The notes: a model not told the origin generated them from the sequence alone. 64,000 nucleotides of DNA from an uncultured Actinomycetes bacterium (GCA_964551945.1 CAZKFH010000004.1:30435-94434), one strand, 5' to 3'. Positions 6,139-21,280 are shown, counted from the first letter of the stretch. Numbers and translations are program-made.

Positions 6139-6145
6139 CAGCCCA

Positions 6146-7640: not shown

Positions 7641-9356
7641 TTGTTGATACGGTTCCGCCGTATGTCCTTCCGAAAATCCCTGCGAGGCCTCGTCGTGCTC
7701 ATGCTGCTGGCTTCGGCTTGCAACGGTGACGATGGTCCCCCGGTCGAGACGCCCACCTCGGCGGCACCCACGACCACGGGCGGCACCACCGCGCCTCCCG
7801 AGGGGTTCGCGGAGGAGGTCGCGTGCGGCCTCCCGCCCCAGTGGCTTGCGCGCATCTGGCGCGGGTACCACCCGGAGCGCAGCGCGGACATCCAGATCCT
7901 GCCGAAGGTCCCGAACTTCATCGGCGCGGCACTGCCTCACGTCGGGCCGTGGGACTTCACCTCGGACGTCCCGATGTTCTGGTACGGCCCCGGCTACATC
8001 AAGCCGATCGGGCCGGTGCAGGAGCCCGTGACGTCGGCCGACATCACCGCGACGTTCGACCATCTGCTCGATTCGTCGTTCGAGCCCGTCGACGGGGAGC
8101 CGATGCTGGACGCGCTCGTCCCCGCCGAGGAGCGTCCGGAACCGCCCCGGCTCATCCTCGAGATGATCTGGGACGGAGCGGGTCGCAACGTGCTGACGCA
8201 GTGGCCCGACGCCTGGCCGAACCTCGCGGAGCTGCGTCCGCAGGGCGCGTGGTACGAGCACGCGACCGTCGGCTCCTCGCCGACCTCGTCCGCGCAGATC
8301 CACGCGACGATCGGGACCGGCGCCTTCCCGCGGAACCACGGCGTCGTCGGGCACAGCATCCGTATCGACGGAGAGATCGTCTCGCCGTGGAAGGACGGAG
8401 CGCGCGAGCTGCTCGTCGAGACGTTCGCCGATCACTTCGACCTCGAGCACGACAACGAGCCGATCGTCGGCGAGTCGGGCACCGTGCCGATCCAGCTGGG
8501 AATGATGAGCCGCGGCGCCCTCGCCGAGGGCGGCGACAAGGACATCGCGGTGCTCCGCACGCCGGGGAACGCCGAGACGCTCGGCGCGGAGGGCGTGGCC
8601 TGGAACCTCCCCGAGGGGTTCGACCAGTGGTACCGGTACGTGCCGTACGCGAACGACCTGCCAGAGCTCCCCACGTACTTCGACGACGTCGAGCTCGACG
8701 CGGGAGACGGCAAGCGCGACGGATTGTGGCACGGGCGAGCGTTCGAACAGTCGGACGAGCTTCTCGACGGGTTCCACACGCCGGCGCGCGTCCCGTATCA
8801 GACGCGGCTGGTCGAGGAGATGATCACGCGCGAGGGGTTCGGTGCGGACGAGACGACCGACCTCTTCTACATCAACTACAAGCTGATCGACGCGCTCGGG
8901 CACCTGTTCGGTATCCAGGACCCGGCGATCGGTGACGCGGTGCGCGCCCAGGACGACTCGCTGTCGCGGCTGATCGCGTTCCTCAACGAGCAGGTCGGCG
9001 AGAACCGCTGGGTGCTCCTGGTCACCGCCGACCACGGGTCGCTGGAGTCCACGCAGACGAGCGGGGCGTTCAATATCTCCGGCGAGGCGGTCAGCTCGGC
9101 GATCCAGGCGCGCTTCGACGAGGACGGGGACGAGGTCCCGGTGATCGAGCAGGTCAAGCAGACGGAGATCTTCATGAATATCTCGGAACTCGAGGAGCAG
9201 GGCCACACGCTGGAGGATGTGTCACGGTTCATCATGGATCTTCGGCAGCAGGATGTGCCGTTCCCCGGCTTCGAGGTGCCGTCACCGAACGAGAAGGTCT
9301 TCCAGGCCGCGTTCCCGGCCGAGGCACTCGAGTCGCTGCCGTGCCTCCAGGCCTAG
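7641..9356 (+). CDS. Type I phosphodiesterase / nucleotide pyrophosphatase-like (alkaline phosphatase superfamily) lipoprotein, paralog 1
   Basis: Signal peptide plus lipobox (LLASAC; alternative ATG start at 7662). Motifs LILEMIWDGAGRNVL (metal-binding Asp), GSSPTSSAQIHATIGTGAFPRNHG (NPP-type Thr nucleophile block, compare PT.T.PNH...TG..P..HGI) and C-terminal TADHGS. Confidence 0.75.
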   Translation: MLIRFRRMSFRKSLRGLVVLMLLASACNGDDGPPVETPTSAAPTTTGGTTAPPEGFAEEVACGLPPQWLARIWRGYHPERSADIQILPKVPNFIGAALPHVGPWDFTSDVPMFWYGPGYIKPIGPVQEPVTSADITATFDHLLDSSFEPVDGEPMLDALVPAEERPEPPRLILEMIWDGAGRNVLTQWPDAWPNLAELRPQGAWYEHATVGSSPTSSAQIHATIGTGAFPRNHGVVGHSIRIDGEIVSPWKDGARELLVETFADHFDLEHDNEPIVGESGTVPIQLGMMSRGALAEGGDKDIAVLRTPGNAETLGAEGVAWNLPEGFDQWYRYVPYANDLPELPTYFDDVELDAGDGKRDGLWHGRAFEQSDELLDGFHTPARVPYQTRLVEEMITREGFGADETTDLFYINYKLIDALGHLFGIQDPAIGDAVRAQDDSLSRLIAFLNEQVGENRWVLLVTADHGSLESTQTSGAFNISGEAVSSAIQARFDEDGDEVPVIEQVKQTEIFMNISELEEQGHTLEDVSRFIMDLRQQDVPFPGFEVPSPNEKVFQAAFPAEALESLPCLQA

Positions 9357-9598
9357 TCCCAGATCCGCTCCAGGTGCCACCGGCCGGAGCGCCGGTCCTG
9401 ATAGATGTCGCAGACCGCGCCGCCCCGCGCCTCCACCCGCCAGTACTCGCGGTCACGGCCGTCCTCCCACCACCGGCCCTCGATCCGCCAGCGGCCGATC
9501 ACGTCCGCGACCTGGTACTGCCGGGAACGCCAGCGGAACGCGGCGGGCATGCCGGCGTCACGCTCGACCTTGACCTCCTCGTCGTACCGGATCCCCAC
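9353..9598 (-). CDS. Small Trp/Arg-rich hypothetical protein, predicted SOS-inducible
   Basis: 3' part of listed ORF 9353..9859; candidate starts GTG 9598 (81 aa) or ATG 9550 (65 aa: MPAAFRWRSRQYQVADVIGRWRIEGRWWEDGRDREYWRVEARGG...). LexA box 10 nt upstream of the GTG. Convergent 4-nt overlap with paralog 1. Confidence 0.45.
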   Translation of the reverse strand: MGIRYDEEVKVERDAGMPAAFRWRSRQYQVADVIGRWRIEGRWWEDGRDREYWRVEARGGAVCDIYQDRRSGRWHLERIWD

Positions 9599-9608
9599 CT
9601 TCGCCCCC

Positions 9609-9624
9609 TCGAACGTATGTTCGA
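9609..9624. promoter_or_regulatory. LexA (SOS) operator TCGAAC-N4-GTTCGA
   Basis: Perfect palindrome TCGAACGTATGTTCGA in the 380-bp gap between two phosphodiesterase paralogs, immediately upstream of the minus-strand small ORF. Confidence 0.65.
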
Positions 9625-9737
9625 CCGGACCTGTGAAGGTACTCCGGAGCCATTTGGGTGTCAAGCCGAGCCTGACGGCCCAACCGCGCCTCGATAGACT
9701 TCCGCGTTCCCATGACCCTTGACCCCACGAGCATTTC

Positions 9738-11387
9738 TTGACCGTTCGAGCGGGCGCGCTCCTCCTGCTGCTGGCGATGGCGGCAGCGTGCACGGAAGAC
9801 GCACCGACGCCGCGGTCGTCACCCTCGCCGACGGCCTCGGCGACCGCGTCCCCCTCCATCGATCCGTCCGAGCCGCCCAGCCGCTACGCGCGCATCGCCT
9901 GCAGCCTGCCGCGCGAGCAGATCCTGCGCGTGTACAACGGCACCAACCCCGATCGCTCCGGCGAGCTGCAGTTCGTTCCCCAGGAGCCGAACTACGTCGG
10001 GAACTTCGCGTCACACTCGGGACCGTGGGATTACCTCCAGGACGTCCCCCTGTTCCTCTACGGGCCCGGCCACGTTCCCGCGACCGGGGAAGTTCCCCGC
10101 AAGGCGACCGTCGCGGATCTCGCTCCGACGTACGCCGAGATGATCGACTTCGAGTTCGACGCTCCCGACGGCCAACCGCTGACGGAGGCGATCGGTCCCG
10201 CAGCGGATCCCCCGAAGCTGATCCTGACGGTCGTCTGGGACGGCGCCGGGATCAACGTGCTGGAGCAGTACCCGCGCGCGTGGCCGGTCGTGAAGGCCCT
10301 GATCCCCAACGGCGCCTGGTACGAGAACGCGACTGTGGGCTCCTCACCCTCGGTGACGCCGGCGATCCACTCGACGATCGGCACCGGCGCGTTCCCCCGC
10401 ACGCACGGGATCGTCGATCTGCGCTTCCGGATCGAGGGCGCCGTGGACCCCTCGGCGTTCCAACGAGCCACGCTGATGGTCGGTCCGAGCCTCGGTGACG
10501 TCTACGACGCCGCGCTCGACAATCAGCCCGTGATCGGGATGGTCGGCGCCGAGGGAACGCTCGGCATGATCGGGCACGGCTCGCTGTGGGAGAACGGTGA
10601 CTTCGACATCGCGGCGGCGTCGCGCGCCGGCGAGTGGGGGCTCGCCGGTAACAACAACGAGTTCTACGAGTTCCCGGCGTACGTCCACGACCTTCCCGGC
10701 TACGACAAGGTACCGGCTGAAGCCGATCGCGACGACGGCACAGTTGACGGCACGTGGTTCGGCGCCGAGCTCGACACGCCGGACAGCTACACATACACCG
10801 AGGCGTACAACCGCTACCAGACCGGAGTGATCGAGGAGGTCATCGAGCGGGAGGAGTTCGGCCGGGACGAGATCACCGACCTCCTGTACGTCAACTACAA
10901 GCAGATCGACAAGGTCGGGCACAAGTTCTCGTTCCCGTCGCAGGCCATGGAGAAGGCGGTGAAGGGAAGCGACAACGCGTTCGAGGCCCTGGTCGAGGTC
11001 CTAGACCGCCAGGTCGGCGAGGGTGAGTGGGTCATGGCGCTCACGGCCGACCACGGCTCCACCCCCTTGCCCGAGACGACCGGGGCGGTCATCATCGATA
11101 ACTTCGAGCTTGCCAGGGACCTCCTTGCCGAGTTCGATGGGGACGACGACGACCGGCCCGTGATCCAGAGCCCGCGCGTGACCCAGACCTGGGTCGACCT
11201 GGAGGAGCTCGAGGAGCACGGCCACACGTTGGAGGACATGGCGGACTACCTGATGGCGTACACGCGGGCCGACAACGCGGTCGACCCCTCGAGCGTTCCG
11301 GCCGACGCTGCAGATGATCGGCTGTTCGCCGCGTCGTTCCCGAGCGCGGAGCTCGACACGCTCCCCTGCCTGGAGCCGGCCTCATGA
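9738..11387 (+). CDS. Type I phosphodiesterase / nucleotide pyrophosphatase-like lipoprotein, paralog 2
   Basis: TTG start; signal peptide with lipobox (LAMAAAC). Motifs LILTVVWDGAGINVL, GSSPSVTPAIHSTIGTGAFPRTHG, LTADHGS. Colinear similarity to paralog 1 over the full length. Confidence 0.75.
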   Translation: MTVRAGALLLLLAMAAACTEDAPTPRSSPSPTASATASPSIDPSEPPSRYARIACSLPREQILRVYNGTNPDRSGELQFVPQEPNYVGNFASHSGPWDYLQDVPLFLYGPGHVPATGEVPRKATVADLAPTYAEMIDFEFDAPDGQPLTEAIGPAADPPKLILTVVWDGAGINVLEQYPRAWPVVKALIPNGAWYENATVGSSPSVTPAIHSTIGTGAFPRTHGIVDLRFRIEGAVDPSAFQRATLMVGPSLGDVYDAALDNQPVIGMVGAEGTLGMIGHGSLWENGDFDIAAASRAGEWGLAGNNNEFYEFPAYVHDLPGYDKVPAEADRDDGTVDGTWFGAELDTPDSYTYTEAYNRYQTGVIEEVIEREEFGRDEITDLLYVNYKQIDKVGHKFSFPSQAMEKAVKGSDNAFEALVEVLDRQVGEGEWVMALTADHGSTPLPETTGAVIIDNFELARDLLAEFDGDDDDRPVIQSPRVTQTWVDLEELEEHGHTLEDMADYLMAYTRADNAVDPSSVPADAADDRLFAASFPSAELDTLPCLEPAS

Positions 11388-14300
11388 CGAAGACCGGCCG
11401 CTCCTGGGCAGCGGTCGCGACCGTCACCGCGATCGTGGCGGTGATGGGGTGGCAGTTCTTCACCGACGCGTCTCGCGCGGTGCCGGCGTTCGACACCGCG
11501 TACTACGAGTGGCGCGTCGAGTACCTCTTGGCCGAGGAGCCCGGCGCGCTGATCGACCTGCGAGGGGCGGACGGCGCGCTCGCCAGCGGGTACCGCGTCG
11601 CTGAGCCGGTGCTGGGAGCGCTCCTGCGAACGGTCGGCGGGGTCGACGACTCCGTTCCGTCGGTCGTGCTCTCGATCCTGTTCCGCGTGCTGTGCGCGCT
11701 GGGGATGGCTGCGTTCGCGTGGCGGCACCGGAGGAACTGGCTCCTCTTCTACCTCACCCTGCTGACGATCCCGGCGCTGTTCCTGCTGCAGCGGTTCTTC
11801 GGCTACATGGACAACTTCATGACGGGGGCTCTGCTCGCGGGAGCGCTCGTGCTGCTCGACCGGATGCGGGAGTCCTGGGGGGCACGGATCGCCGTCACCT
11901 TGTTCTTCTTCCTCTCGGGGCTGAGCCATCCGACAACCCTCGTGATCCTGTTGCTGTCTCTCGGTGCCGTCGCGGTGTACCGGTTCGTACGGGAGCGGTC
12001 GCTCCTCAAGGCCCTGCAGTCGGAGGGCCTCGTCATCGCGACCGGCACGGTCTCGGTGATCATGACCGCGGCGTTCTGGTTGGGAGGCCTGTGGGGTCCG
12101 ACGTCCTCGTTCAGCGACGCGGCCGTCCCACCCCCGGCCGACGTCGACTATTTCGTCAACCGAAGCCTCGGCGTGATGAAGAACCTCCAGCCCTTCGACC
12201 CGGCCACCGCCCCGGACTGGATGGTGCTGCTTGGCGTCGCCGCGCTCGGCGCCCTGATGCTCGCGGGGCTGGTGCACCTTGTTCGGCGCATCGGCAAGGA
12301 CCGCGAGTACTTCGCGGAGATCACAGTCGGCTGGACGCTCCCGCTCCTGGGGATGCTCGGGTTCCTGGTCGGCTTCGCGTACCCGTACTTCCGCTTCTTC
12401 AACGCGACGCTCGCTCCTCTGTCGCTCGCGGCGCTCGGGCTGGCGCTGTTCATCGCGGGCGCACGGAAGATCGGCGGGCAGCGGCTCGCGGTGCTGGCGC
12501 TCGTGGCCGTCGTGGCCCTCCTCGGAGGCTGGTGGTACCGCGGCCTGTCGGCGTGGAACGAGACGGGGACGTGGCTCACGCCCGAGATCCGAACGACCAC
12601 CTCCGCGCTGAACGGCTACCTCGAAGCCGACCCCGACGTTCGGGCACTCATGGTGGTCGACGCCCAGGGCGAGTCGCAGGTCTCCTATGGCGCCTACAAG
12701 GAGTACCTGAACGCGACGTACGCGGGGATCGACGGAGAGAACATCGACCGCGTCACGTTCTTCTTCGGCCGCATCGAGGACCTCGAGGCCGGTCAGGCCA
12801 CGGAACTCCCCGGCAACGACGTCTACAACACGATCGCCACTGAGACCGCGAAGGAGGCACTCGCGGTCCTCGAGGAGGACAACGTCGTCGTGTTCCTGCC
12901 AGCCGAGATGAACACCCCCTCCTCAAACGAGGAATACCTGGGTGAATGCACCGAGGTCATCTTTCGGACCGGGACGTTCTTGAGCGACACCCAACCGTGT
13001 TCAGAGGTCGGGAACAGCGGTCTCTACGCGGTCCCCGGCTTGTCGTCATCTGAGATCGACGAAGCTTCCTTCCGAAGCGCTTTTGAAGCCGGCGCGACGG
13101 CCGCCTCGCAGGCGACCACCTTCGCAACCAATCCACCGGGGCCCTTCGAGAACATCGGTTCGACGCTGCTGGCAACGCTGAGGCTCGCGCTCCTCTTCCT
13201 GCTTCCCGGATGGCTCTTCTACCGGAGGTTCGAGCGGCGCTCGTTCCCCGAGGCACTCGCGCTCGTGCCGTTGTTCTCGATCGCGGCGGTGACCACGATC
13301 GGGGTCTTCGCGATGGCGATCGTCCGCTCGCCGTTCAGCCCGACCATCGGATGGGCATCGTGGGGCATCGCCGTGCTCATCGCGGCATTCTGGAGGCTCC
13401 CCGCAGGCATCCGCCGCCGTCGCGATGCGCTCTTCGCCGGTCCCGCCCGGCTGATCGACTCCACCGCCCTGCTCTTCAAGAAGCGCGACTTCACGGCATT
13501 GATGGGCGCGCAGTGGCTCGCACAGGCCGCGGACGGGCTCGTCGCGGCATCGATCGCGAAGCTCATCACGTTCGGTGGGCAGAGCGGCTTGGACGTCGAG
13601 GCCGCGGGCTCGCCGCGCGACGCGCTGGTGATCGTGCTGCTCACCTTCCTGCCCTACACCCTCTTCAGCCCGTTCCTCGGAGTCGCGATCGACCGCGGCG
13701 ACCGACGGAAGCTGCTGATCTGGGCGAACGCCGTGCGGACCGTGATCCTCGCCGCGATCGTGGTGCTCGGTCTCTCCACGATCGGCGACGCCGCGCTCTA
13801 CGTCTCGCTGCTCCTGGTTCTGGCCGGCACCCGTCTGTTGCTGGCGATCAAGAGCGCCGCGCTCCCGACGATCCTCGGCGGCCGTGACCTCCTGCAGGGC
13901 AACTCGATCTCCCAGGCCGGGAGCGCCCTGTTCCAGCTCTTCGGCGCGGGAGTCGGGCTCGTCGCGTCCGGGCTCCTGAACACGCGCGTGATCCTGATCG
14001 GCGGCGTGCTTCTCTACGCGGGAGCCACCGCTTCCTCGATCGCCGTTCGCAATCTCGCCGGCGACACGGGCAAGGACTCGCTCTCGGGCGAGCTTCGGCG
14101 GGTGTTCGGCAACATGATCGACGGCTTCAAGGAGGTGCGCCGCCGCGCGGCCGCCGGGATCGGCCTGCTCTCTTTCCTTACGGTGCGAAGCATGCTGACG
14201 ATGGTCGTCCTCGCGACCGGCTTCGCGTCCCGCGAGCTGATCGAGGCAGAGGGCCTCACCTCAACCGCGATTCCCGGTCTCGCCGGAGTGCTCGGGGCCG

Positions 14301-14731
14301 GCCTCGGATTCGTCATCGCGCACAACGTTCGTGAGCGCGTCGCGGCGGCTCGGATCGTCAGTGGTGCCCTGATCGTCGGTGCGATCGGCATGCTCGCGTT
14401 CGGCGGGATCGTGTCGATCCTTGGGATCTCGCTGATGGCATTCTCGGTGGGTCTCGCGTTCTTCCTCGGCAAGGTCGGGGTCGACACGATGATGCAGGAG
14501 GCCCTCGACGACCGGTTCCGAGGACGCGGCTTCAGCCTTCAGGACATCGCGTACAACATCTCCTGGCTGCTGCCGGCGTTCGTGCTGTACCTCTTCGTGG
14601 GTGAGAACTTCGACCGTGTACGGATCCTGCTCGTGATCGCGGGCGTCGTGTTCCTGGCGGTGGCGCTGCTGATCGGGTTCGCCGCGCGGCGCCTGCCCGT
14701 TACGGGAAAGGAACCGACGCGGGCGACGTGA
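11384..14731 (+). CDS. Large fusion membrane protein: N-terminal ~650-aa polytopic domain with a big extracytoplasmic loop (GT-C-like glycosyl/lipid transferase architecture, low confidence) fused to a C-terminal 12-TM MFS-type transporter domain
   Basis: 1115 aa; ATGA overlap with paralog 2 stop (translational coupling). N-domain has many hydrophobic helices, a first-loop DTAYYEWRVEY acidic motif and a ~250-aa soluble segment (residues ~400-650). C-domain (from ~FKKRDFTALMGAQWLAQAADGLVAAS...) has MFS-like paired 6+6 TM organisation with basic interhelix loops. Confidence 0.65.
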   Translation: MTKTGRSWAAVATVTAIVAVMGWQFFTDASRAVPAFDTAYYEWRVEYLLAEEPGALIDLRGADGALASGYRVAEPVLGALLRTVGGVDDSVPSVVLSILFRVLCALGMAAFAWRHRRNWLLFYLTLLTIPALFLLQRFFGYMDNFMTGALLAGALVLLDRMRESWGARIAVTLFFFLSGLSHPTTLVILLLSLGAVAVYRFVRERSLLKALQSEGLVIATGTVSVIMTAAFWLGGLWGPTSSFSDAAVPPPADVDYFVNRSLGVMKNLQPFDPATAPDWMVLLGVAALGALMLAGLVHLVRRIGKDREYFAEITVGWTLPLLGMLGFLVGFAYPYFRFFNATLAPLSLAALGLALFIAGARKIGGQRLAVLALVAVVALLGGWWYRGLSAWNETGTWLTPEIRTTTSALNGYLEADPDVRALMVVDAQGESQVSYGAYKEYLNATYAGIDGENIDRVTFFFGRIEDLEAGQATELPGNDVYNTIATETAKEALAVLEEDNVVVFLPAEMNTPSSNEEYLGECTEVIFRTGTFLSDTQPCSEVGNSGLYAVPGLSSSEIDEASFRSAFEAGATAASQATTFATNPPGPFENIGSTLLATLRLALLFLLPGWLFYRRFERRSFPEALALVPLFSIAAVTTIGVFAMAIVRSPFSPTIGWASWGIAVLIAAFWRLPAGIRRRRDALFAGPARLIDSTALLFKKRDFTALMGAQWLAQAADGLVAASIAKLITFGGQSGLDVEAAGSPRDALVIVLLTFLPYTLFSPFLGVAIDRGDRRKLLIWANAVRTVILAAIVVLGLSTIGDAALYVSLLLVLAGTRLLLAIKSAALPTILGGRDLLQGNSISQAGSALFQLFGAGVGLVASGLLNTRVILIGGVLLYAGATASSIAVRNLAGDTGKDSLSGELRRVFGNMIDGFKEVRRRAAAGIGLLSFLTVRSMLTMVVLATGFASRELIEAEGLTSTAIPGLAGVLGAGLGFVIAHNVRERVAAARIVSGALIVGAIGMLAFGGIVSILGISLMAFSVGLAFFLGKVGVDTMMQEALDDRFRGRGFSLQDIAYNISWLLPAFVLYLFVGENFDRVRILLVIAGVVFLAVALLIGFAARRLPVTGKEPTRAT

Positions 14732-16475
14732 GGTCGCCCTCCGGGTACTCGCCCGGACCCGCTGCACCCACTTGCGCGTCTGTCAGCGCGCCCAGGTAGT
14801 CGCCGGGAAACGCGCCGGCGAAGACCAGCCGATCGAGCTCCTCATCGGAGATCTTCGAGCGATCCGCGTCCTTCGGCAGACCGTCGCCGTAGCGGTATTC
14901 GCCCACGAACCGCGCGACGTCCTCGAGCGTGATGCCAGCGACGTCCATGGCCCCCCGATCGAGGAACAGGCCCGACGGGGTCACCTTCTGCACGATCTCG
15001 CGACCGAAGTACGCGTCGACGTCCTGGCCGAGCACGTCGGGGTGGATGCGAAGGCCGCCGGTGGTCTCCGGGAGCGGCGTCTGGCCGTGATCCGCGGTGT
15101 AGGCAAGCACCCACTCCCCCTTGCCGACCTCCCGGTCGAGCGTGTCGACGATCTCTCCGAGCAGCTGATCTTGCGCGCGCAATACCTCCTCCTCCTCGGG
15201 CGCGACCATGTTCCAGAGGTGACCGCCGAAGTCGGTCGGCTTCAGCTCGACGAACAGCAGGTCCGTGACGTCATCGTCGCCGAACGGCTCGCGGCGCATC
15301 ATCTCGAGCAGCGCCTGTCCCTGATGGATGACGAACGCCGGGGTCGCGGGGATGACCTTCGGGTCCTGCAGGTCGTACTCGTTCCACATCCCGTCGAGCT
15401 TGCCGTCCTCGGCGTCCTGCTCGTCGAGCCGCGCGCGCAGATCGTCCTCGCCGGGGAGGTAGTCGGGAACCTCGTACAGCTCCTCGTTCGCGAAGAACTC
15501 GCCGACCCCCTCGTCGGGGTTCCATAGAACCGCGACGTCGCGATCAGCGCCGGTCGGCTGAGCACCGTGACTCATCATCCCCAGGTGCCAGGACTCGTAG
15601 CCGATCATCCCCACCCAGGCCTCGTTGTTCGTGTCGAGATCCCACTGATCGGCCAACGTCGTATCGAGCAGCAGCTGAGGGTCGGCATCGTGCTCGAAGA
15701 AGAGATCGCCGACACTTCCGTCCGGGAGCCGACCGGTGATCTCCGCCATACCGTGACTGCTCGGGTACCGCCCGGTCCCCATGTTCGCGTGGATCGCTGA
15801 GGTGACTGCCGGCGCCGAGCCGATCGTGGCGTTCGTGAACACCGTCCCCTCATCCATCAGCCTGCGTAGCTCGGGCCACGCATCAGGCCAGCGTTCGAGC
15901 AGATTCCAGCCTCCCCCGTCGTACGCGACGAGGACGACGGCTCGCGGCCGCGTGGTGAGCGGCGCGGGCTGAGGCTCGGGAGGGGCAGGTGGGAGTGCCT
16001 CTCGAAGAGGCAGTCCTGCGGGGTCGAAGTAGTGAAGCGGGTGCCCGAACCGGGTCGTCTTCCCCAGCAGCCAGCCGAAGGACGGCGCCAGGTCAGTCAC
16101 ATCAACAGAGCGATCCGAGGGTGGCCCCGGCGTGATGTGCCCAGGCCCGTAGAGGACGATCGGGACGCGCTGGTGATAGCTCCATGGCGTCGGGTGAGTG
16201 GTGCTCGGGTCGGCGTCATCGGTGCCGAGACCTACGCCGCTCCAGCGGACCACCACGTTGTACGGCTCCGGCACGAACGCGATATCGGTCGAGGTCGCCG
16301 GGTAGTACCCCCGCCGCAGGGCCGTGAGGACGTCCCCGCCGACCGCCTCGGCCATCTGGTCGAGTGTGCGGGACTCTTGGGGCGGCCCCGGGACGGGACG
16401 AGGCTCTTCCTCCGTGCAGCCCGCAGCGAGGAGGAGAACCGTCAGGACGAGGGCCGCACGGGGCGCGGGAAGCAT
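14700..16475 (-). CDS. Type I phosphodiesterase / nucleotide pyrophosphatase-like lipoprotein, paralog 3
   Basis: 3' part of listed 811-aa ORF; start ATG 16475 (MLPAPRAALVLTVLLLAAGC lipobox). Motifs VVLVAYDGGGWNLL, GSAPAVTSAIHANMGTGRYPSSHG, YTADHGQ. 32-nt convergent overlap with the fusion gene. Confidence 0.75.
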   Translation of the reverse strand: MLPAPRAALVLTVLLLAAGCTEEEPRPVPGPPQESRTLDQMAEAVGGDVLTALRRGYYPATSTDIAFVPEPYNVVVRWSGVGLGTDDADPSTTHPTPWSYHQRVPIVLYGPGHITPGPPSDRSVDVTDLAPSFGWLLGKTTRFGHPLHYFDPAGLPLREALPPAPPEPQPAPLTTRPRAVVLVAYDGGGWNLLERWPDAWPELRRLMDEGTVFTNATIGSAPAVTSAIHANMGTGRYPSSHGMAEITGRLPDGSVGDLFFEHDADPQLLLDTTLADQWDLDTNNEAWVGMIGYESWHLGMMSHGAQPTGADRDVAVLWNPDEGVGEFFANEELYEVPDYLPGEDDLRARLDEQDAEDGKLDGMWNEYDLQDPKVIPATPAFVIHQGQALLEMMRREPFGDDDVTDLLFVELKPTDFGGHLWNMVAPEEEEVLRAQDQLLGEIVDTLDREVGKGEWVLAYTADHGQTPLPETTGGLRIHPDVLGQDVDAYFGREIVQKVTPSGLFLDRGAMDVAGITLEDVARFVGEYRYGDGLPKDADRSKISDEELDRLVFAGAFPGDYLGALTDAQVGAAGPGEYPEGDLTSPASVPFP

Positions 16476-16526
16476 GGAGCGGGATGATACCCGTCGTTGT
16501 GGAGCCGCTCGCGCGACAATGGCCGC

Positions 16527-17804
16527 ATGCTCTCCCGAAGACGGCTGCTCGTCGCCGTGGGTATCGCTGCCCTGATCACCCTCCCGGCCGGTGTGCTCGC
16601 CGGCCTTTGCGTCGGCAATGCCTGCCGCCGCGAGGAGCGAGCGACGGGACGCGTCCCCTTCTGCTCGCTTCCGCAGGACCTCCGCTCCCTGATCGCGGCC
16701 GGCTTTCGTGACGGACGCTCCCCGCACGTCATGACGGTGACGAGCCGGGAGGCGAATGCCGAGCCGGCCGAGATGCCGGTCGCGTTCGCCGGAACCGGCG
16801 TGACGCCGGGGGCCGAGGTTCCGGCCGGCACGACCCTCGACGCGGTGGCACCGACGCTGGCCGAGATCATCGGGCTCCGCCGGCCCCACCCCGGGGTGCG
16901 CTCGGGCGAACCGGTGAGCGGGGTCGCATCCGGCGAGGCTCCGCGACTCGTCGTGCTCGTCGCGTGGAAGGGAGTGACGAGCCGGCTGCTCGAGAGAAGT
17001 CCTCAGCTGTGGCCCGTTCTCCGGGGGCTGTTCGAGGACGGTGCGGGCACGCTCGAGGCGACGCCGGGCTCCCTTCCGCTCGACCCCGCAGCCCTGCTGG
17101 CAACGGTCGGGACCGGTGGCCTTCCCCGCGATCACGGCATCACGGGCTCGCTGATCCGGAACGATCAGGGTGACGTCGTCGAGCCCTGGTCCGAGGGCGC
17201 GCCGTTCTCGGTGATCGCGACGGTCGCGGACGACCTCGACGAGCTGGGACAGCAGGCGCCGCGGGTCGGCCTGATCGGTACCGAGGAGACGGACCGGGGG
17301 CTAGCCGGAGGGAACTGGTACGTCGAGAACGACACCGACGACGTCGTGATCGAGCCAACCCTCGAGGGGCAGGCCATCGCCGCGGACACTCTATTGAACT
17401 CCGGGTACGGCGCCGACGCGACCACCGACCTGCTCGCGGTCGCGATGGAGGGGCCCATCCCCCGGCTCGACCAAACCTTGGGACGCCTCCTGGTTGCCGC
17501 TGAACGCACGAGCGGAGGATCGCTCGCGGTGGCCGTCTTGGGAGCTCCATCCGTCACGCGCCAAGGAGCGGCGGCGTTGACTCCGGCCGAGCTCGAGACG
17601 GAGCTCCAGAATCGCCTCGAAGCCGACGTGGTCGAGGCTATCGTGGGGAACGGTGTGTTCCTCGACCAGGAAGCGATGACGGTGAGCGGCCTGTCGGACG
17701 ACCGTGTCGTCGTGGCGCTCCGAGGTCTCGAGACCCCGACGGGCGAACGCGTGTTCCTCGACGTCTTTCCCTCCATCGCGGTGACGTTCGCGAGGTATTG
17801 CTGA
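16527..17804 (+). CDS. Degenerate (likely catalytically inactive) paralog of the phosphodiesterase-like family
   Basis: Signal-like N-terminus (MLSRRRLLVAVGIAALITLPAGVLAGLC). Colinear with the paralogs, but the metal-binding Asp is replaced (LVVLVAWKGVTSRLL), the nucleophile block is mutated (GSLPLDPAALLATVGTGGLPRDHG) and the C-terminal ADHG motif is absent. Divergently transcribed from paralog 3 across a 51-bp gap. Confidence 0.6.
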   Translation: MLSRRRLLVAVGIAALITLPAGVLAGLCVGNACRREERATGRVPFCSLPQDLRSLIAAGFRDGRSPHVMTVTSREANAEPAEMPVAFAGTGVTPGAEVPAGTTLDAVAPTLAEIIGLRRPHPGVRSGEPVSGVASGEAPRLVVLVAWKGVTSRLLERSPQLWPVLRGLFEDGAGTLEATPGSLPLDPAALLATVGTGGLPRDHGITGSLIRNDQGDVVEPWSEGAPFSVIATVADDLDELGQQAPRVGLIGTEETDRGLAGGNWYVENDTDDVVIEPTLEGQAIAADTLLNSGYGADATTDLLAVAMEGPIPRLDQTLGRLLVAAERTSGGSLAVAVLGAPSVTRQGAAALTPAELETELQNRLEADVVEAIVGNGVFLDQEAMTVSGLSDDRVVVALRGLETPTGERVFLDVFPSIAVTFARYC

Positions 17805-18814
17805 TGTCGGTCGCGAACGCAACACCGCAGCCGCAGACGGTCGCGAGCCGGAGAACGCTCGTCGCCGTCGGCGCGGGACTGCTCGTCACGGCGGTCGGGC
17901 TTCGCGCCCTCGACGCGCTCGGCGTGGCCTCGCTCAGGAACTTCCTGATCGTCTTCGCGTCGCTCCTCGTGGAGGCGCTCCCGTTCATCGTGCTCGGCGC
18001 GGCGGTCTCGGCGTTGATCGAGGTCTTCGTCCCCGCGAGCGTCTTCGCCAAGCTGGCCCGCCTGCCCCGCGCGCTGCAGCAGCCGGTCGCGGGACTCGGG
18101 GGCTTCGCGTTCCCGGTCTGCGAGTGCGGCTCCGTGCCGGTCGCGCGCCGACTGGTCGCGAAGGGCATGGCACCCGCGGCCGCGATCACGTTCATGCTGG
18201 CCGCGCCCATCCTCAACCCCGTCGTCCTGGCCGCGACCGCCATCGCGTACCGGGGTCGAGACATCCTGTGGCCGATGGTGCTCGGGCGTGCGGGACTCGG
18301 CTTCCTGGTGGCGATCGTCGCGGGTTGGGTGGTCGGGACGGGTCGAGGCCAGGACATCCTTCGAGGTGGGGCATCCCGTGGTGGACTTCACGACCACGGC
18401 GACGTGCCGGAGGCGCGCTGGGCCGAGTACTTCGGCCACCTCGCGAGTGACTTCACGCTCCTTGCCCGTTACCTCGTGATCGGCGCGGCGATCGCAGCCG
18501 CGCTGCAGACGTTCGTTCCCCAGCAGGTGCTTGGCTCTGTCGCCGAGACCCCGATCCTCAATGTCGCGGCGCTCATGGTCCTCGCGTCGCTCCTGTCCCT
18601 ATGCTCCGAGTCGGATGCGTTCGTCGCTGCCTCCTTCGTGCAGTTCGGGCCCTCGGCGCAGCTTGCCTTCCTCGTGGCCGGTCCGATGATCGACGCGAAG
18701 CTGGCCGTGCTCTACGGCGGAACGTTCCGCCGCGGCTTCGTGCTGACGATCACGGCCGCGGTCTTCTCGTTGACGCTCGCCGGTGCCCTGTGGTTCCAGG
18801 TGGCGTTCGGATGA
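17798..18814 (+). CDS. Permease, DUF318/ArsP-like family (CxC motif) - first component of a two-gene permease
   Basis: 338 aa, ~8 TM; conserved ...FAFPVCECGSVPVARRL... motif characteristic of the DUF318 predicted-permease family. Confidence 0.7.
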   Translation: MLMSVANATPQPQTVASRRTLVAVGAGLLVTAVGLRALDALGVASLRNFLIVFASLLVEALPFIVLGAAVSALIEVFVPASVFAKLARLPRALQQPVAGLGGFAFPVCECGSVPVARRLVAKGMAPAAAITFMLAAPILNPVVLAATAIAYRGRDILWPMVLGRAGLGFLVAIVAGWVVGTGRGQDILRGGASRGGLHDHGDVPEARWAEYFGHLASDFTLLARYLVIGAAIAAALQTFVPQQVLGSVAETPILNVAALMVLASLLSLCSESDAFVAASFVQFGPSAQLAFLVAGPMIDAKLAVLYGGTFRRGFVLTITAAVFSLTLAGALWFQVAFG

Positions 18815-19512
18815 GGCGCTGGAGCGGCTCCCGGCTCGCGCAGACCCTGGCGCTCGCGGCGTGGGGCGGCCTCTTTTGGTTCCTGCTCTTCGCCGACCGG
18901 ACCTCCCTCTATCTTTCCTCCCGGACGGCGTGGGTCGTGCCGGTCGGGGCGATCGGCCTCACCATCGCGGCGCTCGGTCGCCTCGCCACGGCACGCACGC
19001 CGAGCCCCGGTCCGCTGGGTCGAGGCACCGTCTGGGCCGTCGGATTCGTGCTGCTTCCCGTCGTCGCGATCCTGGTGCTACCCCCGGCGGCGCTCGGCTC
19101 GTATGCCGCATCCCGCCGCTCGCTTTCCTCTGGACTTGTCGCGAGCGCTCCTGCGCTCGAGGCCGGCGGCACCGTCACACTCGCCGCCGTTGCCGCTGCG
19201 GGCTGGTCGGAGGACGCGAGACGTTCGCTCGTGTCACGCGCGGGCAGCCGTGTGTCCTTCGAGGGCATCGTGACGAAGCGAGCCGGCCAGGCCGCGGACG
19301 AGTTCATGCTCACGAGGTTCATCGTCTCCTGCTGCGTCGCGGACGCGCTCAGCGTGCAGGTGCGCGTGGTCGGAGCGCCCCCTGGAGAGTTCGAGGAAGA
19401 CGACTGGGTGCGGGTCAGCGGCGCCTTCTACCCGGTGGGTCAGGAGGTCGTGGTCGATGCGTCCGAGATCCAGCCGATCCCCCAGCCGGACGATCCGTAC
19501 CTGAACGTCTAG
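18811..19512 (+). CDS. TIGR03943/DUF1980-family membrane protein (partner of DUF318 permeases)
   Basis: 3' part of listed ORF 18601..19512; ATG 18811 overlaps the upstream stop (ATGA). N-terminal 2-3 TM then a soluble domain with a CC pair (FIVSCCVADA); this family is canonically adjacent to DUF318. Confidence 0.6.
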   Translation: MRRWSGSRLAQTLALAAWGGLFWFLLFADRTSLYLSSRTAWVVPVGAIGLTIAALGRLATARTPSPGPLGRGTVWAVGFVLLPVVAILVLPPAALGSYAASRRSLSSGLVASAPALEAGGTVTLAAVAAAGWSEDARRSLVSRAGSRVSFEGIVTKRAGQAADEFMLTRFIVSCCVADALSVQVRVVGAPPGEFEEDDWVRVSGAFYPVGQEVVVDASEIQPIPQPDDPYLNV

Positions 19513-21233
19513 ACGGGCACGTCCGGCGGCGAGGTCAGGTCGGACTCGGGATACATCCCCGGGCCGAGCGCCTCGATCTCCGCGTTGCTGAGCGACTCGA
19601 GGAACGGACCGGGAAGCGCGGCGGCGAAGACGCGCTCGTTCAGCATCGCCGCCGGGATATCGTCGGCGTCGAAGCCAGTTGGGAGCCCCTCCACGTAGCG
19701 GTAGTCCCCGATCCAGCGCGCGATCTCCTCCAGCGTGAGCCCCTCCTCCTCCATCTCCTCAAGGTCCACGTACATGTCGGAGGGCTGGGCTGCCTCCACG
19801 ACACCGAATCGGTCGTCGACATCCTCTGCGAGCTCGTATCGGTCGATGCGCAGGCCGTCGTAGTTCTCCGCGACCGGCGTCTGACCGTGGTCGGCGGTCA
19901 CCGCGAGCACGTACCGTCCCTCCCCGATCCGCCGGTCGAGGGTCTCAACCAGCTCCCCCAGGATCCGGTCCTGCTCCTGCCAGACGGTCTCGAACTGCGT
20001 GCTCTCCATCCCCCAGAAATGGCCCGCGAGATCCCCGGTCTTGAACTCGAAGAACGCCATGTCGGTGATGTCGTCCAGGCCGATCGGCTCCCGTCGAGCC
20101 ATCCGCAGGATGACCTGTCCCGAGTACCACGCGAACGCCGGGTTCGCGGTGAACTGATACGTGTCGGCCTCCAGTGGGCTGTCGCCCCACCGGTCGTCGC
20201 GCGCGCCATCGGAAGCATCTAGCTCCGAGAGCCGAGACTCGAACCTCGATCGCTCGGGGAGGTAGTAAGGGAGCTCGTACGCCTCCGTGTTCGTCCAGAA
20301 CGTGGTCTCCTCCCGGTCCCACATCACGGCCGGATCGGCGTCTCCCCCGCCGGGCGCGCTGGCGCCGCGCCCCATCATCGCGAGGTGCCACGTCTCGTAG
20401 CCCGCGACGCCCACCCAGGCGCGGTTGCCGGTCGAGCGGTCCCACGCGTCGGCCAGGGTCTCGGCGTTCATCAGACGGAAGTCGGCGCGCTCGAAGCTGA
20501 TGTCGCCGATCGTCCCGTCGGGAAGGCGGCTCGCGTTCTCCGCGATCCCGTGGGTGCGGGGGAACGTGCCGGTTCCCAGAGTGGCGTGCACCGGCGCGGT
20601 CACGCTCGGTGCCGACCCGTTGGTGGCGTTCGTGAACGTCGTTCCGTCTGCCATGAGATCGGCCTGGGCGGGCCAGGCGTCGGGCCACTCCTCGAGGACG
20701 TTCCAGCCCCCGCCGTCGAAGACCGCGGTGACGATCGCCCGGGGAGGCTCGGGCCGCTGGGCCTTTGGAACGAGCGCCTCGCGCAGGACGCGACCGGCGG
20801 GAGCATCGAACTCAAAGTCCATCAGCTCCGCGAACGTGGGCGCCAGATCTGCCATGGTCACCGCGCGCTCCGCGACGATGTGCGAACGAATGTATCCGGG
20901 CCCGTAGAGAGTGATCGGCACGCGCTGGTGGTAGGACCAGGGCGTGGCGTGGGTCGTCCGGGGGTCCCGCACCCCGGCGCGCCCGCCCTCCCAGTTGCCC
21001 AGCACGTTCCACGGCTTGGGGATGAGCGCGATATCGCCCGATCGTCCCGGCACGTAGCCGCGCACGATGGACCGCATCACGTCGGTCCCGAGCGCCCGGG
21101 CCATCTGCATGAGCGTCGGTCCGAAACGCGGCTCACCGTCGTCCGAACATCCCGTGCTCACGAGCATGACGGCCGTCACGAGGGCTATCAGAAGGAAGTG
21201 GGCATGCTTCACACGCCGTCGGAGAGGGGTCAC
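19509..21233 (-). CDS. Type I phosphodiesterase / nucleotide pyrophosphatase-like lipoprotein, paralog 4
   Basis: GTG start 21233; signal peptide plus lipobox (LVSTGC). Motifs IVTAVFDGGGWNVL, GSAPSVTAPVHATLGTGTFPRTHG, VTADHGQ. Most similar to paralog 3. 4-nt convergent overlap with the TIGR03943 gene. Confidence 0.75.
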   Translation of the reverse strand: MTPLRRRVKHAHFLLIALVTAVMLVSTGCSDDGEPRFGPTLMQMARALGTDVMRSIVRGYVPGRSGDIALIPKPWNVLGNWEGGRAGVRDPRTTHATPWSYHQRVPITLYGPGYIRSHIVAERAVTMADLAPTFAELMDFEFDAPAGRVLREALVPKAQRPEPPRAIVTAVFDGGGWNVLEEWPDAWPAQADLMADGTTFTNATNGSAPSVTAPVHATLGTGTFPRTHGIAENASRLPDGTIGDISFERADFRLMNAETLADAWDRSTGNRAWVGVAGYETWHLAMMGRGASAPGGGDADPAVMWDREETTFWTNTEAYELPYYLPERSRFESRLSELDASDGARDDRWGDSPLEADTYQFTANPAFAWYSGQVILRMARREPIGLDDITDMAFFEFKTGDLAGHFWGMESTQFETVWQEQDRILGELVETLDRRIGEGRYVLAVTADHGQTPVAENYDGLRIDRYELAEDVDDRFGVVEAAQPSDMYVDLEEMEEEGLTLEEIARWIGDYRYVEGLPTGFDADDIPAAMLNERVFAAALPGPFLESLSNAEIEALGPGMYPESDLTSPPDVPV

Positions 21234-21280
21234 GGGATGGGTAGAATATGCGCTCCCGGCCCACTGGAGAGACGATCCCT

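What the first reader, a model, noticed from the sequence alone, without database searches (positions are those of the whole stretch)
7641..21233. Five-member paralogous family of NPP/alkaline-phosphatase-superfamily lipoproteins clustered within 14 kb
Four full-length paralogs (7641-9356 +, 9738-11387 +, 14700-16475 -, 19509-21233 -) share a colinear layout: lipobox signal peptide, a W/Y-DGxG metal-binding block, a GS(S/A)P.VT..(I/V)H(A/S)..GTG..P..HG nucleophile block of the type-I phosphodiesterase / nucleotide-pyrophosphatase (PF01663-like) type, and a C-terminal (T/Y)ADHG. They fall into two pairs (P1/P2 and P3/P4) and are interleaved with a giant membrane fusion protein, a DUF318/TIGR03943 permease and an SOS-box ORF. 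Such dense, strand-alternating paralog expansion of secreted di-metal phosphodiesterases is not a standard operon type known to me. It suggests either phosphate scavenging from diverse phosphodiester substrates or an envelope-polymer (phosphodiester-linked glycan/teichoic-like) processing system.
Basis: partly seen in the sequence, partly recalled or inferred. Interest (0 to 1): 0.8.

Follow-up and report, generated by a model that had tools for sequence, protein, structure and literature searches.

The report
Circularly permuted PafA-like phosphatase lipoprotein cluster
Five related genes for alkaline-phosphatase-type enzymes, four intact and membrane-tethered and one catalytically dead, sit in a cell-envelope gene cluster conserved across uncultured Actinomycetota, and all carry the enzyme fold in a rearranged (circularly permuted) order that I found no published report of in this superfamily.

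Summary
P1 (7641-9356 +), P2 (9738-11387 +), P3 (14700-16475 -) and P4 (19509-21233 -) are paralogs: 32-49% identity, and PF01663 at 78-100 bits against a cut-off of 23. All four have a lipobox and a complete two-metal site with a Thr or Ser nucleophile. The fifth member is 16497-17804 (+).

1. The family is a circular permutant of the PafA/PhoK alkaline phosphatases. The block carrying the last metal-binding His, which is C-terminal in PafA, lies at the N-terminus here.
2. The fifth member is a conserved pseudoenzyme. It has lost every metal ligand and the nucleophile, and it is almost always the first gene of an operon with a Cys-rich ArsP_1/TIGR03943 permease pair.
3. This is an old locus, syntenic in dozens of Actinomycetota MAGs. 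An active paralog sits directly upstream of a GT-C-fold glycosyltransferase, here fused to an MFS transporter. The flanking genes are an SQD1 orthologue (UDP-sulfoquinovose synthase), a polyprenyl-phosphate GT2, two GT4s and a PLC/acid-phosphatase-type enzyme.

Extracytoplasmic two-metal phosphoryl transfer is well supported. The substrate is not known. My preferred reading is phosphate release tied to envelope remodelling. I rate it a new variant of a known kind, interest about 0.6.

The parts
7641..9356 (+). P1: active permuted PafA-like phosphoesterase lipoprotein. Probable start is ATG 7662. The nucleophile is Ser instead of Thr.
   Evidence: PF01663 at 84.9 bits. 39% identical to P2. All metal ligands are present and the nucleophile column holds Ser. 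Lipobox LLASAC, followed by a Thr/Pro-rich linker. Residues 75-160 align to residues 445-529 of a conventional-order PafA-like protein.
9353..9624 (-). Small DUF6504 ORF (9353-9601) with a perfect LexA/SOS box (9609-9624) upstream. It sits between P1 and P2 and I do not consider it part of the phosphatase system.
   Evidence: PF20114 at 53.6 bits. TCGAACGTATGTTCGA matches with 0 mismatches.
9738..11387 (+). P2: active permuted PafA-like phosphoesterase lipoprotein. Its stop codon overlaps the start of the GT-C-MFS gene (ATGA).
   Evidence: PF01663 at 100.3 bits. Ligands and Thr nucleophile are present. Lipobox AMAAAC. In related loci an active paralog lies directly upstream of the GT-C gene on the same strand in 29 of 35 cases.
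11384..14731 (+). Fusion protein of 1115 aa: an N-terminal GT-C-fold glycosyltransferase (about residues 1-700) and a C-terminal MFS transporter (about residues 703-1100).
14700..16475 (-). P3: active permuted PafA-like phosphoesterase lipoprotein.
   Evidence: PF01663 at 77.6 bits. 49% identical to P4. Ligands and Thr nucleophile are present. Lipobox LLAAGC. Orthologues occur in most related loci.
16497..17804 (+). P5: catalytically dead paralog (pseudoenzyme), probable start 16527. It has an N-terminal TM helix followed by a conserved C-x-G-x-x-C motif, and it is the first gene of a P5-ArsP_1-TIGR03943 operon.
   Evidence: tblastn against P1-P4 gives E 1e-13 to 2e-19. In the window copy and its 27 orthologues (one of them the window's own contig in another assembly), D173 is usually replaced by Lys, T212 usually by Pro, D401/H405 are deleted and D448/H449 are replaced, usually by Thr-Gly. 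C28, C33, C46 and the C-terminal Cys are invariant in 45 sequences. P5 lies directly upstream of ArsP_1 in 27 of 29 cases.
17798..18814 (+). ArsP_1 (DUF318) permease with CEC and CSES motifs.
   Evidence: PF03773 at 179.9 bits. The weak best NCBIfam hit is the SO_0444 Cu/Zn efflux family, 58.5 bits against a cut-off of 300. Sequence.
18811..19512 (+). TIGR03943 / DUF1980 putative permease subunit with an SCC motif.
   Evidence: TIGR03943 at 108.3 bits against a cut-off of 88.8. DUF1980_C. Sequence.
19509..21233 (-). P4: active permuted PafA-like phosphoesterase lipoprotein. It is the only window paralog that keeps the Asn equivalent to PafA N100.
21248..22468 (+). UDP-sulfoquinovose synthase (SQD1/SqdB orthologue), probable start 21281. 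It is divergent from P4.
   Evidence: phmmer against Arabidopsis SQD1 (1i24) gives E 2.8e-160 over the full length. NF041015 at 483 bits. It is kept next to the P4-type gene at 71-81% identity in about 20 loci.
22469..23524 (+). DUF2304 membrane domain fused to a GT2 polyprenyl-phosphate glycosyltransferase.
   Evidence: PF00535 plus PF10066. The best NCBIfam hits are AglJ, PpgS and dolichyl-phosphate hexose transferase. The best solved relatives are Dol-P-Man synthase 5mlz and ArnC.
4840..7609 (-). Two GT4 glycosyltransferases, 4840-6237 and 6146-7609. The second is divergent from P1.
   Evidence: Glycos_transf_1 and Glyco_trans_1_4. GT4b is syntenic in L012, L023 and L025.
1963..3393 (+). 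PF04185 phosphoesterase (phospholipase C / acid phosphatase type) at the left edge of the cluster.
   Evidence: PF04185 at 216.7 bits. TIGR03397 acid phosphatase at 162.9 bits and TIGR03396 PC-PLC at 125.6 bits, both below their cut-offs. Syntenic in L012, L023 and L025.

Best explanation
P1-P4 are membrane-tethered extracytoplasmic phosphoesterases. They are lipoproteins and use two metal ions.

Fold (shown): they belong to a small clade, found only in uncultured Actinomycetota, that is a natural circular permutant of the PafA/PhoK branch of the alkaline-phosphatase superfamily. The segment that is C-terminal in PafA (a strand-helix unit carrying the last Zn-binding His, H95 in P4) has moved in front of the first strand, the one bearing the DGxG Asp.

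Chemistry (inferred): it should be the superfamily's usual one. A Thr (Ser in P1) alkoxide, activated by the metal site, attacks the phosphorus to form a covalent phospho-enzyme, which is then resolved by water.

Context (shown): the genes are fixed parts of a conserved envelope locus of about 22 kb.
- One active copy is translationally coupled to a GT-C glycosyltransferase fused to an MFS transporter.
- One copy is divergent from an SQD1 / polyprenyl-phosphate-GT2 pair, a likely route to polyprenyl-P-sulfoquinovose.
- The dead copy P5 heads an operon with a Cys-rich ArsP_1/TIGR03943 permease pair.

Function (inferred, not shown): the four enzymes hydrolyse phosphoester head groups or linkages of envelope lipids or polymers, or of exogenous organophosphates, at the outer face of the membrane. 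They would act alongside the PLC-type phosphoesterase, while a phosphorus-free sulfonated glycoconjugate is built. This would be a phosphorus-economy and envelope-remodelling module. P5 would serve as a non-catalytic partner of the permease, as a binding or scaffold subunit.
For: Identity and active site:
- PF01663 at 78-100 bits.
- H95, D173, T/S212, D401, H405, D448 and H449 are 100% conserved in 120 active sequences.

Fold:
- AF2 model with pLDDT 92.

Permutation:
- The family profile matches PafA at E 1.7e-37 in three pieces: family 163-235 to PafA 16-90, family 357-512 to PafA 250-414, and family 53-155 to PafA 440-533 (independent E 3.6e-7). PhoK gives the same pattern.
- All four paralogs show it against a conventional-order homologue. 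Cutting and rejoining the sequence in silico makes the alignment colinear.

Export: lipoboxes, and C29 is conserved.

Context:
- Synteny across L002-L054.
- An active paralog lies directly upstream of the GT-C gene in 29 of 35 cases, and P5 directly upstream of ArsP_1 in 27 of 29.
- GT-C fold.
- GT-C and MFS are separate genes in some MAGs and fused in others.
- SQD1 orthology at E 2.8e-160.
- The GT2 belongs to the polyprenyl-P class.
- PF04185 phosphoesterase.

Literature: SQD1/SQD2 sulfolipid synthesis is used as a marker of phospholipid substitution under P limitation (PMC13086504).
Against: - No substrate or activity was tested.
- There are no pst/pho genes anywhere in the window, and no motif is shared among the promoter regions. 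Phosphate regulation is therefore unsupported.
- PafA's K162/R164 dyad, which confers monoester preference (bioRxiv 10.1101/2020.11.24.383182), is not recognisably conserved, and the N100 equivalent survives only in P4. Neither monoesterase nor diesterase activity can be asserted.
- Tight coupling to a GT-C/MFS would fit a biosynthetic role as well as a degradative one.
- SQD1 was found in only 13 of 47 loci of at least 12 kb, so it is not a universal partner.
- The permuted topology rests on sequence and profile alignments and on the AF2 secondary structure. I could not inspect coordinates to confirm that H95 sits at the metal site.
Confidence: 0.5

Rival explanations
1. Biosynthetic phosphotransferases. 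P1-P4 would not be hydrolases. They would transfer a phospho-alcohol (for example glycerol-phosphate or phosphoethanolamine) from a membrane lipid to a glycolipid or glycan acceptor on the outer face. In this reading they are analogues of LtaS/LtaP or of the PF01663-type GPI ethanolamine-phosphate transferases. Together with the GT4s (anchor synthesis), the MFS (flippase, as LtaA) and the GT2 plus GT-C (decoration), they would assemble a lipoteichoic-acid-like polymer.
For: - The gene set mirrors the logic of the LTA pathway. An MFS flippase LtaA sits in an operon with the glycolipid glycosyltransferase; extracytoplasmic enzymes of the alkaline-phosphatase superfamily come in multiple paralogs (four LtaS-type enzymes in B. 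subtilis, primase plus synthase in Listeria); and Actinobacteria that make polyglycerolphosphate LTA lack LtaS homologues (all from PMC3089915).
- An active paralog is translationally coupled to the GT-C in 29 of 35 cases.
- The GT-C/MFS fusion.
- The old, stable orthogroups fit distinct dedicated steps.
- LTA glycosylation by a GT2, a small flippase and a GT-C (CsbB/GtcA/YfhO), and the PF01663 domains of PIG-N/O/G, are from my own knowledge. I did not test them here.
Against: - The nearest characterised relatives are hydrolases.
- The family was found only in uncultured MAGs, not in the Actinobacteria known to make LTA.
Confidence: 0.2
2. Purely nutritional phosphatases. P1-P4 would be ordinary PafA/PhoK-like scavenging enzymes with different substrate ranges, and their position among envelope genes would have no functional meaning.
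For: - The closest solved and curated relatives are the alkaline phosphatases PafA, PhoK and PhoY.
- The catalytic site is complete.
- They are exported as lipoproteins.
- A PF04185 phosphoesterase lies nearby.
- Deeper family members (L055-L074) occur alone, without the partner genes.
Against: - Synteny with the GT-C, MFS, ArsP_1/TIGR03943 and P5 persists down to about 38-40% identity. It includes overlapping stop and start codons and same-strand adjacency in 29 of 35 and 27 of 29 cases. That is hard to explain without functional coupling.
- No pst/pho genes are nearby.
- A conserved dead paralog is not expected for simple scavenging.
Confidence: 0.17
3. The lipoproteins would be acceptor substrates (glycoproteins) of the adjacent GT-C, as in actinobacterial Pmt-type lipoprotein glycosylation. 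Adjacency would then reflect an enzyme-substrate pairing rather than a shared pathway.
For: - The GT-C fold includes protein O-mannosyltransferases and oligosaccharyltransferases (AglB, STT3B, PglB and Pmt hits).
- P1 and P2 carry Thr/Ser/Pro-rich linkers after the lipobox.
- A polyprenyl-P sugar synthase is present.
Against: - P3 and P4 lack such linkers.
- This does not explain the conserved catalytic sites, the MFS fusion or the P5-permease operon.
- It is compatible with, rather than an alternative to, an enzymatic role.
Confidence: 0.07

Closest known systems
PafA (phosphate-irrepressible alkaline phosphatase of Flavobacteriia; PDB 5TJ3/5TOO; NCBIfam NF042991)
   Same: - Same two-metal ligand set and Thr nucleophile in the same local motifs (PxVT...H, D...H, DH, H).
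- Shares the large auxiliary insertions that NPPs lack, judged from aligned lengths of 352 against about 274.
   Different: - Circularly permuted: PafA 440-533 corresponds to family 53-155.
- About 19% identity. NF042991 scores 84-103 bits against a cut-off of 650.
- The K162/R164 dyad is not recognisably conserved, and N100 is kept only in P4.
- Family-specific invariant residues: R236, K398 and a D-x-x-DG-x-x-D-x-x-W loop.
- Lipoprotein anchoring and a conserved envelope gene context.
PhoK / SPAP (Sphingomonas alkaline phosphatase; PDB 3Q3Q, 5XWI)
   Different: Conventional domain order, 17% identity, and a soluble periplasmic enzyme.
Bacterial and eukaryotic NPPs (Xanthomonas NPP, ENPP1-7; Pfam PF01663)
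   Same: This is the Pfam family that all four active paralogs hit. They share the two-metal Thr-nucleophile core.
LtaS/LtaP lipoteichoic-acid synthases and EptA/MCR-1 phosphoethanolamine transferases (functional analogy only)
   Same: They are extracytoplasmic, membrane-associated enzymes of the alkaline-phosphatase superfamily with a Thr nucleophile. They occur as multiple paralogs and work with an MFS flippase and glycolipid glycosyltransferases (PMC3089915).

Membership tests
Pfam PF01663 (type I phosphodiesterase / nucleotide pyrophosphatase) | HMM score above the gathering threshold (23 bits) | tested here: met
   P1 84.9, P2 100.3, P3 77.6 and P4 100.5 bits. P5 scores only 19.8 bits and is therefore not a formal member.
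Pfam PF01663 (type I phosphodiesterase / nucleotide pyrophosphatase) | Complete two-metal ligand set (Asp, Asp/His, Asp/His, His) plus a Thr/Ser nucleophile | tested here: met
   H95, D173, T212 (Ser in P1), D401, H405, D448 and H449 are present in P1-P4 and 100% conserved in 120 active homologues. All are lost in P5 and its orthologues.
Pfam PF01663 (type I phosphodiesterase / nucleotide pyrophosphatase) | Canonical N-to-C order of the core, with the last His ligand C-terminal to the DH motif | tested here: not met
   The block bearing the last His is N-terminal (family 53-155 corresponds to PafA 440-533 and PhoK 457-545). Independent E-values are 3.6e-7 and 4e-4 for the profile and 1e-13 to 9e-7 for the single paralogs.
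PafA-type alkaline phosphatase (NCBIfam NF042991 equivalog) | Curated whole-protein cut-off (650 bits) | tested here: not met
   84-103 bits.
PafA-type alkaline phosphatase (NCBIfam NF042991 equivalog) | Fold including the auxiliary domains | tested here: met
   [not shown]
PafA-type alkaline phosphatase (NCBIfam NF042991 equivalog) | Monoester-specifying K162/R164 dyad and N100 | tested here: inconclusive
   The region aligns with low confidence. A motif-anchored alignment puts E/W (P3, P4) or V/I and A/G (P1, P2) at the dyad positions. The N100 equivalent is Asn in P4 only, with Ile, Leu and His in P3, P2 and P1. The role of the dyad is taken from bioRxiv 10.1101/2020.11.24.383182. A structural superposition is needed.
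Sulfatase (Pfam PF00884) | C/S-x-P-x-R formylglycine motif, with PF00884 as the best-scoring family | tested here: not met
   PF00884 scores 21.6, no reported hit, 40.9 and 24.5 bits for P1, P2, P3 and P4, always below PF01663. The nucleophile block reads GS(A/S)P.(V/S)(T/S), with no CxPxR.
LtaS / EptA-type phosphotransferases | Catalytic domain fused to an N-terminal multi-TM domain, with a sulfatase-branch fold | tested here: not met
   [not shown]
Bacterial lipoproteins | Lipobox [LIVMFWSTAG]2-[LIVMFYSTAGCQ]-[AGS]-C after a hydrophobic signal region | tested here: met
   P1 LLASAC, P2 AMAAAC, P3 LLAAGC and P4 LVSTGC. C29 is at least 90% conserved. P5 does not fit: it has a TM helix followed by LCVGxxC. 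Lipidation itself is not testable here.
GT-C glycosyltransferases (N-terminal half of 11384-14731) | GT-C membrane fold with conserved acidic residues near the first extracytoplasmic loop | tested here: met
   [not shown]
UDP-sulfoquinovose synthase SQD1/SqdB (21248-22468) | Full-length orthology to SQD1 | tested here: met
   phmmer against 1i24 gives E 2.8e-160 and 537 bits over residues 12-394. NF041015 scores 483 bits, below the strict equivalog cut-off of 575; the next family scores 53 bits.

The most novel reading that the evidence does not exclude
The locus would encode a previously undescribed assembly line on the outer face of the membrane in uncultured Actinomycetota. Circularly permuted PafA-like enzymes would act as dedicated phosphotransferases or phosphodiesterases on a lipid-anchored glycopolymer: an LtaS-independent, teichoic-acid-like pathway, or its replacement by a sulfoquinovose-decorated polymer made through polyprenyl-P-sulfoquinovose and a GT-C. 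The conserved dead paralog P5, with its four invariant cysteines, would be a non-catalytic subunit of the Cys-rich ArsP_1/TIGR03943 transporter, for example delivering metal to the active paralogs or binding their product.
Probability: 0.2. Interest if true: 0.85.

Novelty: new variant of a known kind. Interest (0 to 1): 0.6.

Why it matters
1. PafA is a model enzyme for quantitative enzymology, so a natural circular permutant of the well-studied two-metal alkaline-phosphatase/NPP core is useful. It is a ready-made test of how chain connectivity affects folding and the placement of a metal ligand. I found no report of such a permutation in this superfamily.

2. The conserved pairing of a dead alkaline-phosphatase-fold protein with an uncharacterised ArsP_1/TIGR03943 permease gives a handle on a widespread transporter pair of unknown function.

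3. The locus links phosphoesterases, a GT-C-MFS fusion and an SQD1 orthologue in a poorly known soil actinobacterial lineage. This bears on two open questions: how Gram-positive bacteria that lack LtaS build or replace anionic envelope polymers, and how they economise phosphorus.

None of this is shown biochemically. The value lies in well-defined, testable candidates.

Tried and rejected
- Rfam scan of the whole window: no riboswitch or other RNA family.
- Search for a regulatory motif shared by the five promoter regions: no 7-mer is shared by three or more regions, so there is no evidence for a Pho box. The PhoP/RegX3 consensus of this lineage is unknown, so this is not a real test.
- Sulfatase assignment: rejected (and no FGly motif).
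- Recent local gene amplification: rejected. The paralogs are 32-49% identical and each has orthologues in other genomes.
- Foldseek against the AlphaFold database, to find cultured carriers of the permuted fold: the library was not available.
- The look-up of encoding contigs returned only a 5.6-kb copy of the locus. The cluster look-up gave no accession or organism name.
- MFS domain against PDB sequences: no hit, so LtaA or LplT similarity could not be tested. There is only a weak NCBIfam hit to the LplT-containing PRK08633, 27.9 bits.
- Literature on TIGR03943/DUF1980/DUF318 gave only a hint: the B. anthracis ArsP_1 permease BAS1632 is bound by Zur (PMC6336718).
- I could not access model coordinates, so I measured neither the distance of H95 to the metal site nor the proposed disulfide between the termini.

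Full report
**Observation.**
- They are clear paralogs. tblastn and blastp among them give E 1e-68 to 1e-175. Identities are P1/P2 39%, P3/P4 49% and 32-37% across the pairs.
- Each hits Pfam PF01663 at 78-100 bits against a gathering score of 23. PF00884, PF01676 and PglZ hits are weaker.
- NCBIfam's best model is the alkaline phosphatase PafA, far below its cut-off.
- Each protein starts with a signal peptide ending in a lipobox: LLASAC, AMAAAC, LLAAGC, LVSTGC. The lipobox Cys is at least 90% conserved in homologues.

tblastn also finds the fifth member implied by the title, at 16497-17804 (+).
- a 1115-aa membrane fusion protein
- an ArsP_1/DUF318 permease plus a TIGR03943 protein
- a small minus-strand DUF6504 ORF behind a perfect LexA box

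**Circular permutation.** Searching P4 against PDB sequences gave PafA as the best hit, but in three pieces whose order is rotated:

| P4 residues | PafA residues |
|---|---|
| 163-234 | 17-90 |
| 383-452 | 276-345 |
| 52-149 | 440-528 |

- A profile of 55 family members reproduces this at E 1.7e-37. The independent E-values of the pieces are 7.8e-5, 1.3e-20 and 3.6e-7. PhoK gives the same pattern.
- All four window paralogs show the same rotation against P0384, a conventional-order PafA-like protein from the representative search. The independent E-value for the rotated piece is 1e-13 to 9e-7. Cutting each sequence before the DGxG strand and moving the N-terminal block to the end makes the alignment colinear.
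- The rotated block carries the invariant His (H95 in P4) that corresponds to PafA's last Zn ligand. Together with D173, T212, D401, H405, D448 and H449 it completes the two-metal site. All seven positions are 100% conserved in 120 active sequences taken from related loci.
- I had no access to coordinates, so the position of H95 in space is inferred, not measured.
- P1, P2 and the P5 family carry one Cys near the new N-terminus (AC(G/S)LP or PFCSLP) and one at the extreme C-terminus. This would fit a disulfide joining the new termini. That is an inference.
- A full-text search found no paper describing circular permutation in this superfamily.

**Family size and distribution.**
- The word-indexed search found more than 1,100 homologues. 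Almost all are from metagenomes, and the named ones are 'alkaline phosphatase family protein [Actinomycetota bacterium]'.
- An exhaustive phmmer search of 1.84 billion representatives gave 144 clusters at E ≤ 1e-30. Most align colinearly with P4 from about residue 50, so they share the permuted order. Conventional PafA-like proteins appear at about E 1e-30 as multi-piece hits.
- In the GTDB species set, 317 stretches encode relatives. Of the 73 loci kept, all but two are titled Actinomycetota, actinobacterium or Actinomycetes MAGs. The exceptions are one titled Candidatus Velamenicoccus archaeovorus and one titled 'Bacterium HR12'.

**The fifth member is a conserved pseudoenzyme.** P5 and 27 orthologues (one of them, L001, is the window's own contig in another assembly) lack every catalytic residue:

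| Position in P4 | In P5 and its orthologues |
|---|---|
| D173 | Lys in nearly all (92%) |
| T212 | Pro in most (92%), Ser in two |
| H216 | usually Leu |
| D401/H405 segment | deleted |
| D448/H449 | replaced, usually by Thr-Gly |

- P5 is not a lipoprotein. It has an N-terminal TM helix followed by an invariant C-x-G-x-x-C, plus two further invariant Cys.
- The listed top 120 of its 832 database relatives are 341-481 aa long, mostly about 425-480 aa, and are mostly annotated 'hypothetical'.

**Context.** tblastn of the window's genes against 74 fetched loci shows a conserved order:

GT2 – SQD1 >< P4 >< TIGR03943 – ArsP_1 – P5 >< P3 >< MFS/GT-C – P2

- This order is conserved at 50-87% identity in about 20 MAGs.
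- In more distant MAGs a second ArsP_1/TIGR03943 pair lies directly upstream of an active P3-type gene. That gene is followed by an MFS, another paralog and the GT-C.
- An active paralog lies directly upstream of the GT-C on the same strand in 29 of 35 cases. In the window the P2 stop codon overlaps the GT-C start codon.
- P5 lies directly upstream of ArsP_1 in 27 of 29 cases.
- A neighbour-joining tree separates P3-type, P4-type, P1/P2-type, 'upstream-of-GT-C' and P5 clades. The copies are therefore old orthogroups, not a recent expansion.

**The partner genes.**
- The N-terminal 700 residues of the membrane protein have no Pfam match and only 123 homologues. Some are fused to an MFS and some stand alone.
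- The gene divergent from P4, first seen only as an 'epimerase', is an SQD1 orthologue. It gives E 2.8e-160 end to end against the Arabidopsis enzyme.
- The next gene is a DUF2304-GT2 fusion. It is closest to AglJ, PpgS, dolichyl-phosphate hexose transferases, Dol-P-Man synthase and ArnC.
- To the left lie two GT4s, a PLP-dependent decarboxylase and a PF04185 PLC/acid-phosphatase-type enzyme.
- Beyond the cluster are housekeeping genes: dnaE, thiE/thiG, PknB-PASTA, pfk and others. There are no pst/pho genes.

**Mechanism and function.**

*Well supported:* P1-P4 are exported, lipid-anchored enzymes with a two-metal site and a Thr/Ser nucleophile, built on a PafA/PhoK-like but permuted fold.

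*Not settled:* the substrate.
- The fold shares PafA's large auxiliary insertions (352 aligned residues, against about 274 for the NPPs).
- The K162/R164 dyad, which gives PafA its monoester preference, is not recognisably conserved. The N100 equivalent survives only in P4.
- Family-specific invariant residues may replace them: R236, K398 and a D-x-x-DG-x-x-D-x-x-W loop.

*Reading of the context:* tight, old coupling to a GT-C/MFS and to polyprenyl-phosphate sugar synthesis argues that the enzymes act on envelope lipids or polymers rather than only on environmental organophosphate. An SQD1 orthologue and a PLC-type phosphoesterase fit a phosphorus-economy theme, because sulfolipid synthesis is a recognised phospholipid-substitution strategy (PMC13086504).

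I therefore favour hydrolytic release of phosphate from envelope or extracellular phosphoesters as part of an envelope-remodelling locus (confidence about 0.5).

The rivals are:
- a biosynthetic, LtaS-like transferase role (about 0.2; the analogy comes from PMC3089915)
- plain scavenging with no link to the neighbours (about 0.17)
- the lipoproteins as glycosylation substrates of the GT-C (about 0.07)

P5 is most simply a non-catalytic partner of the Cys-rich permease pair. The only literature hint for that pair is a Zur-bound ArsP_1 homologue in B. anthracis (PMC6336718), together with a weak NCBIfam match to a Cu/Zn efflux family.

**Verdict.** The finding is a new variant of a known kind: a circularly permuted PafA/PhoK-like clade, with a conserved pseudoenzyme member, embedded in a conserved but uncharacterised envelope locus. 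Interest 0.6.

Noticed in passing
window 21248-23524 (+): There is an SQD1 (UDP-sulfoquinovose synthase) orthologue, E 2.8e-160 against the plant enzyme. It is immediately followed by a DUF2304-GT2 of the polyprenyl-phosphate glycosyltransferase class, and a GT-C gene lies in the same locus. Together these suggest a polyprenyl-P-sulfoquinovose route to a sulfonated envelope glycoconjugate in an actinobacterium. As far as I know, this is unlike the usual SqdB/SqdX diacylglycerol pathway.
   Followed up: partly
window 9353-9624 (-): A perfect actinobacterial LexA box (TCGAACGTATGTTCGA, 9609-9624) sits upstream of an 82-aa DUF6504 ORF wedged between P1 and P2. The ORF is absent from most syntenic loci, where the P1 position is variable.
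   Followed up: partly
window 1200-1215 and 54609-54624: Two more perfect LexA boxes. One is at the start of the dnaE-like gene (1-1230, minus strand; PHP plus DNA_pol3_alpha domains). The other is just upstream of an RNase_T/UVR-domain gene (54652-56325). With up to 2 mismatches the window has 17 matches, against 4.8 expected by chance.
   Followed up: no
window 11384-14731 (+); L053 11648-12943 and 14558-16624: The GT-C and MFS halves are one fused gene in the window's lineage. In more distant MAGs they are separate genes in the same operon, usually with a phosphatase paralog between them. This gene-fusion pattern suggests that the two act together.
   Followed up: partly
window 16527-17804 (+); P1 and P2 termini: The P5 family has four invariant cysteines: C-x-G-x-x-C just after the TM helix, PFCSLP, and the very last residue. 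P1 and P2 share the N-terminal AC(G/S)LP Cys and a C-terminal LPC Cys. This may be a disulfide stapling the new termini created by the permutation.
   Followed up: partly
window 19509-21233 (-): The public annotation of P4 (P0001, 533 aa) starts at Met42 and so omits the signal peptide and lipobox. The longer ORF, with the conserved Cys29, is supported by homologues.
   Followed up: yes
window 3390-5345 (-): A 651-aa PLP-dependent decarboxylase whose weak best match is diaminobutyrate decarboxylase. It has an unannotated N-terminal extension of about 230 aa, and its longest ORF overlaps the GT4 gene at 4840-6237. Its start codon and its role in the cluster are unclear, and it was not found in the syntenic loci.
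   Followed up: no
L053 18319-21215: In a distant syntenic locus the cluster continues with a Wzx-like Polysacc_synt flippase and a sulfotransferase (PF13469). This is another hint of a sulfated or sulfonated envelope glycan theme.
   Followed up: no
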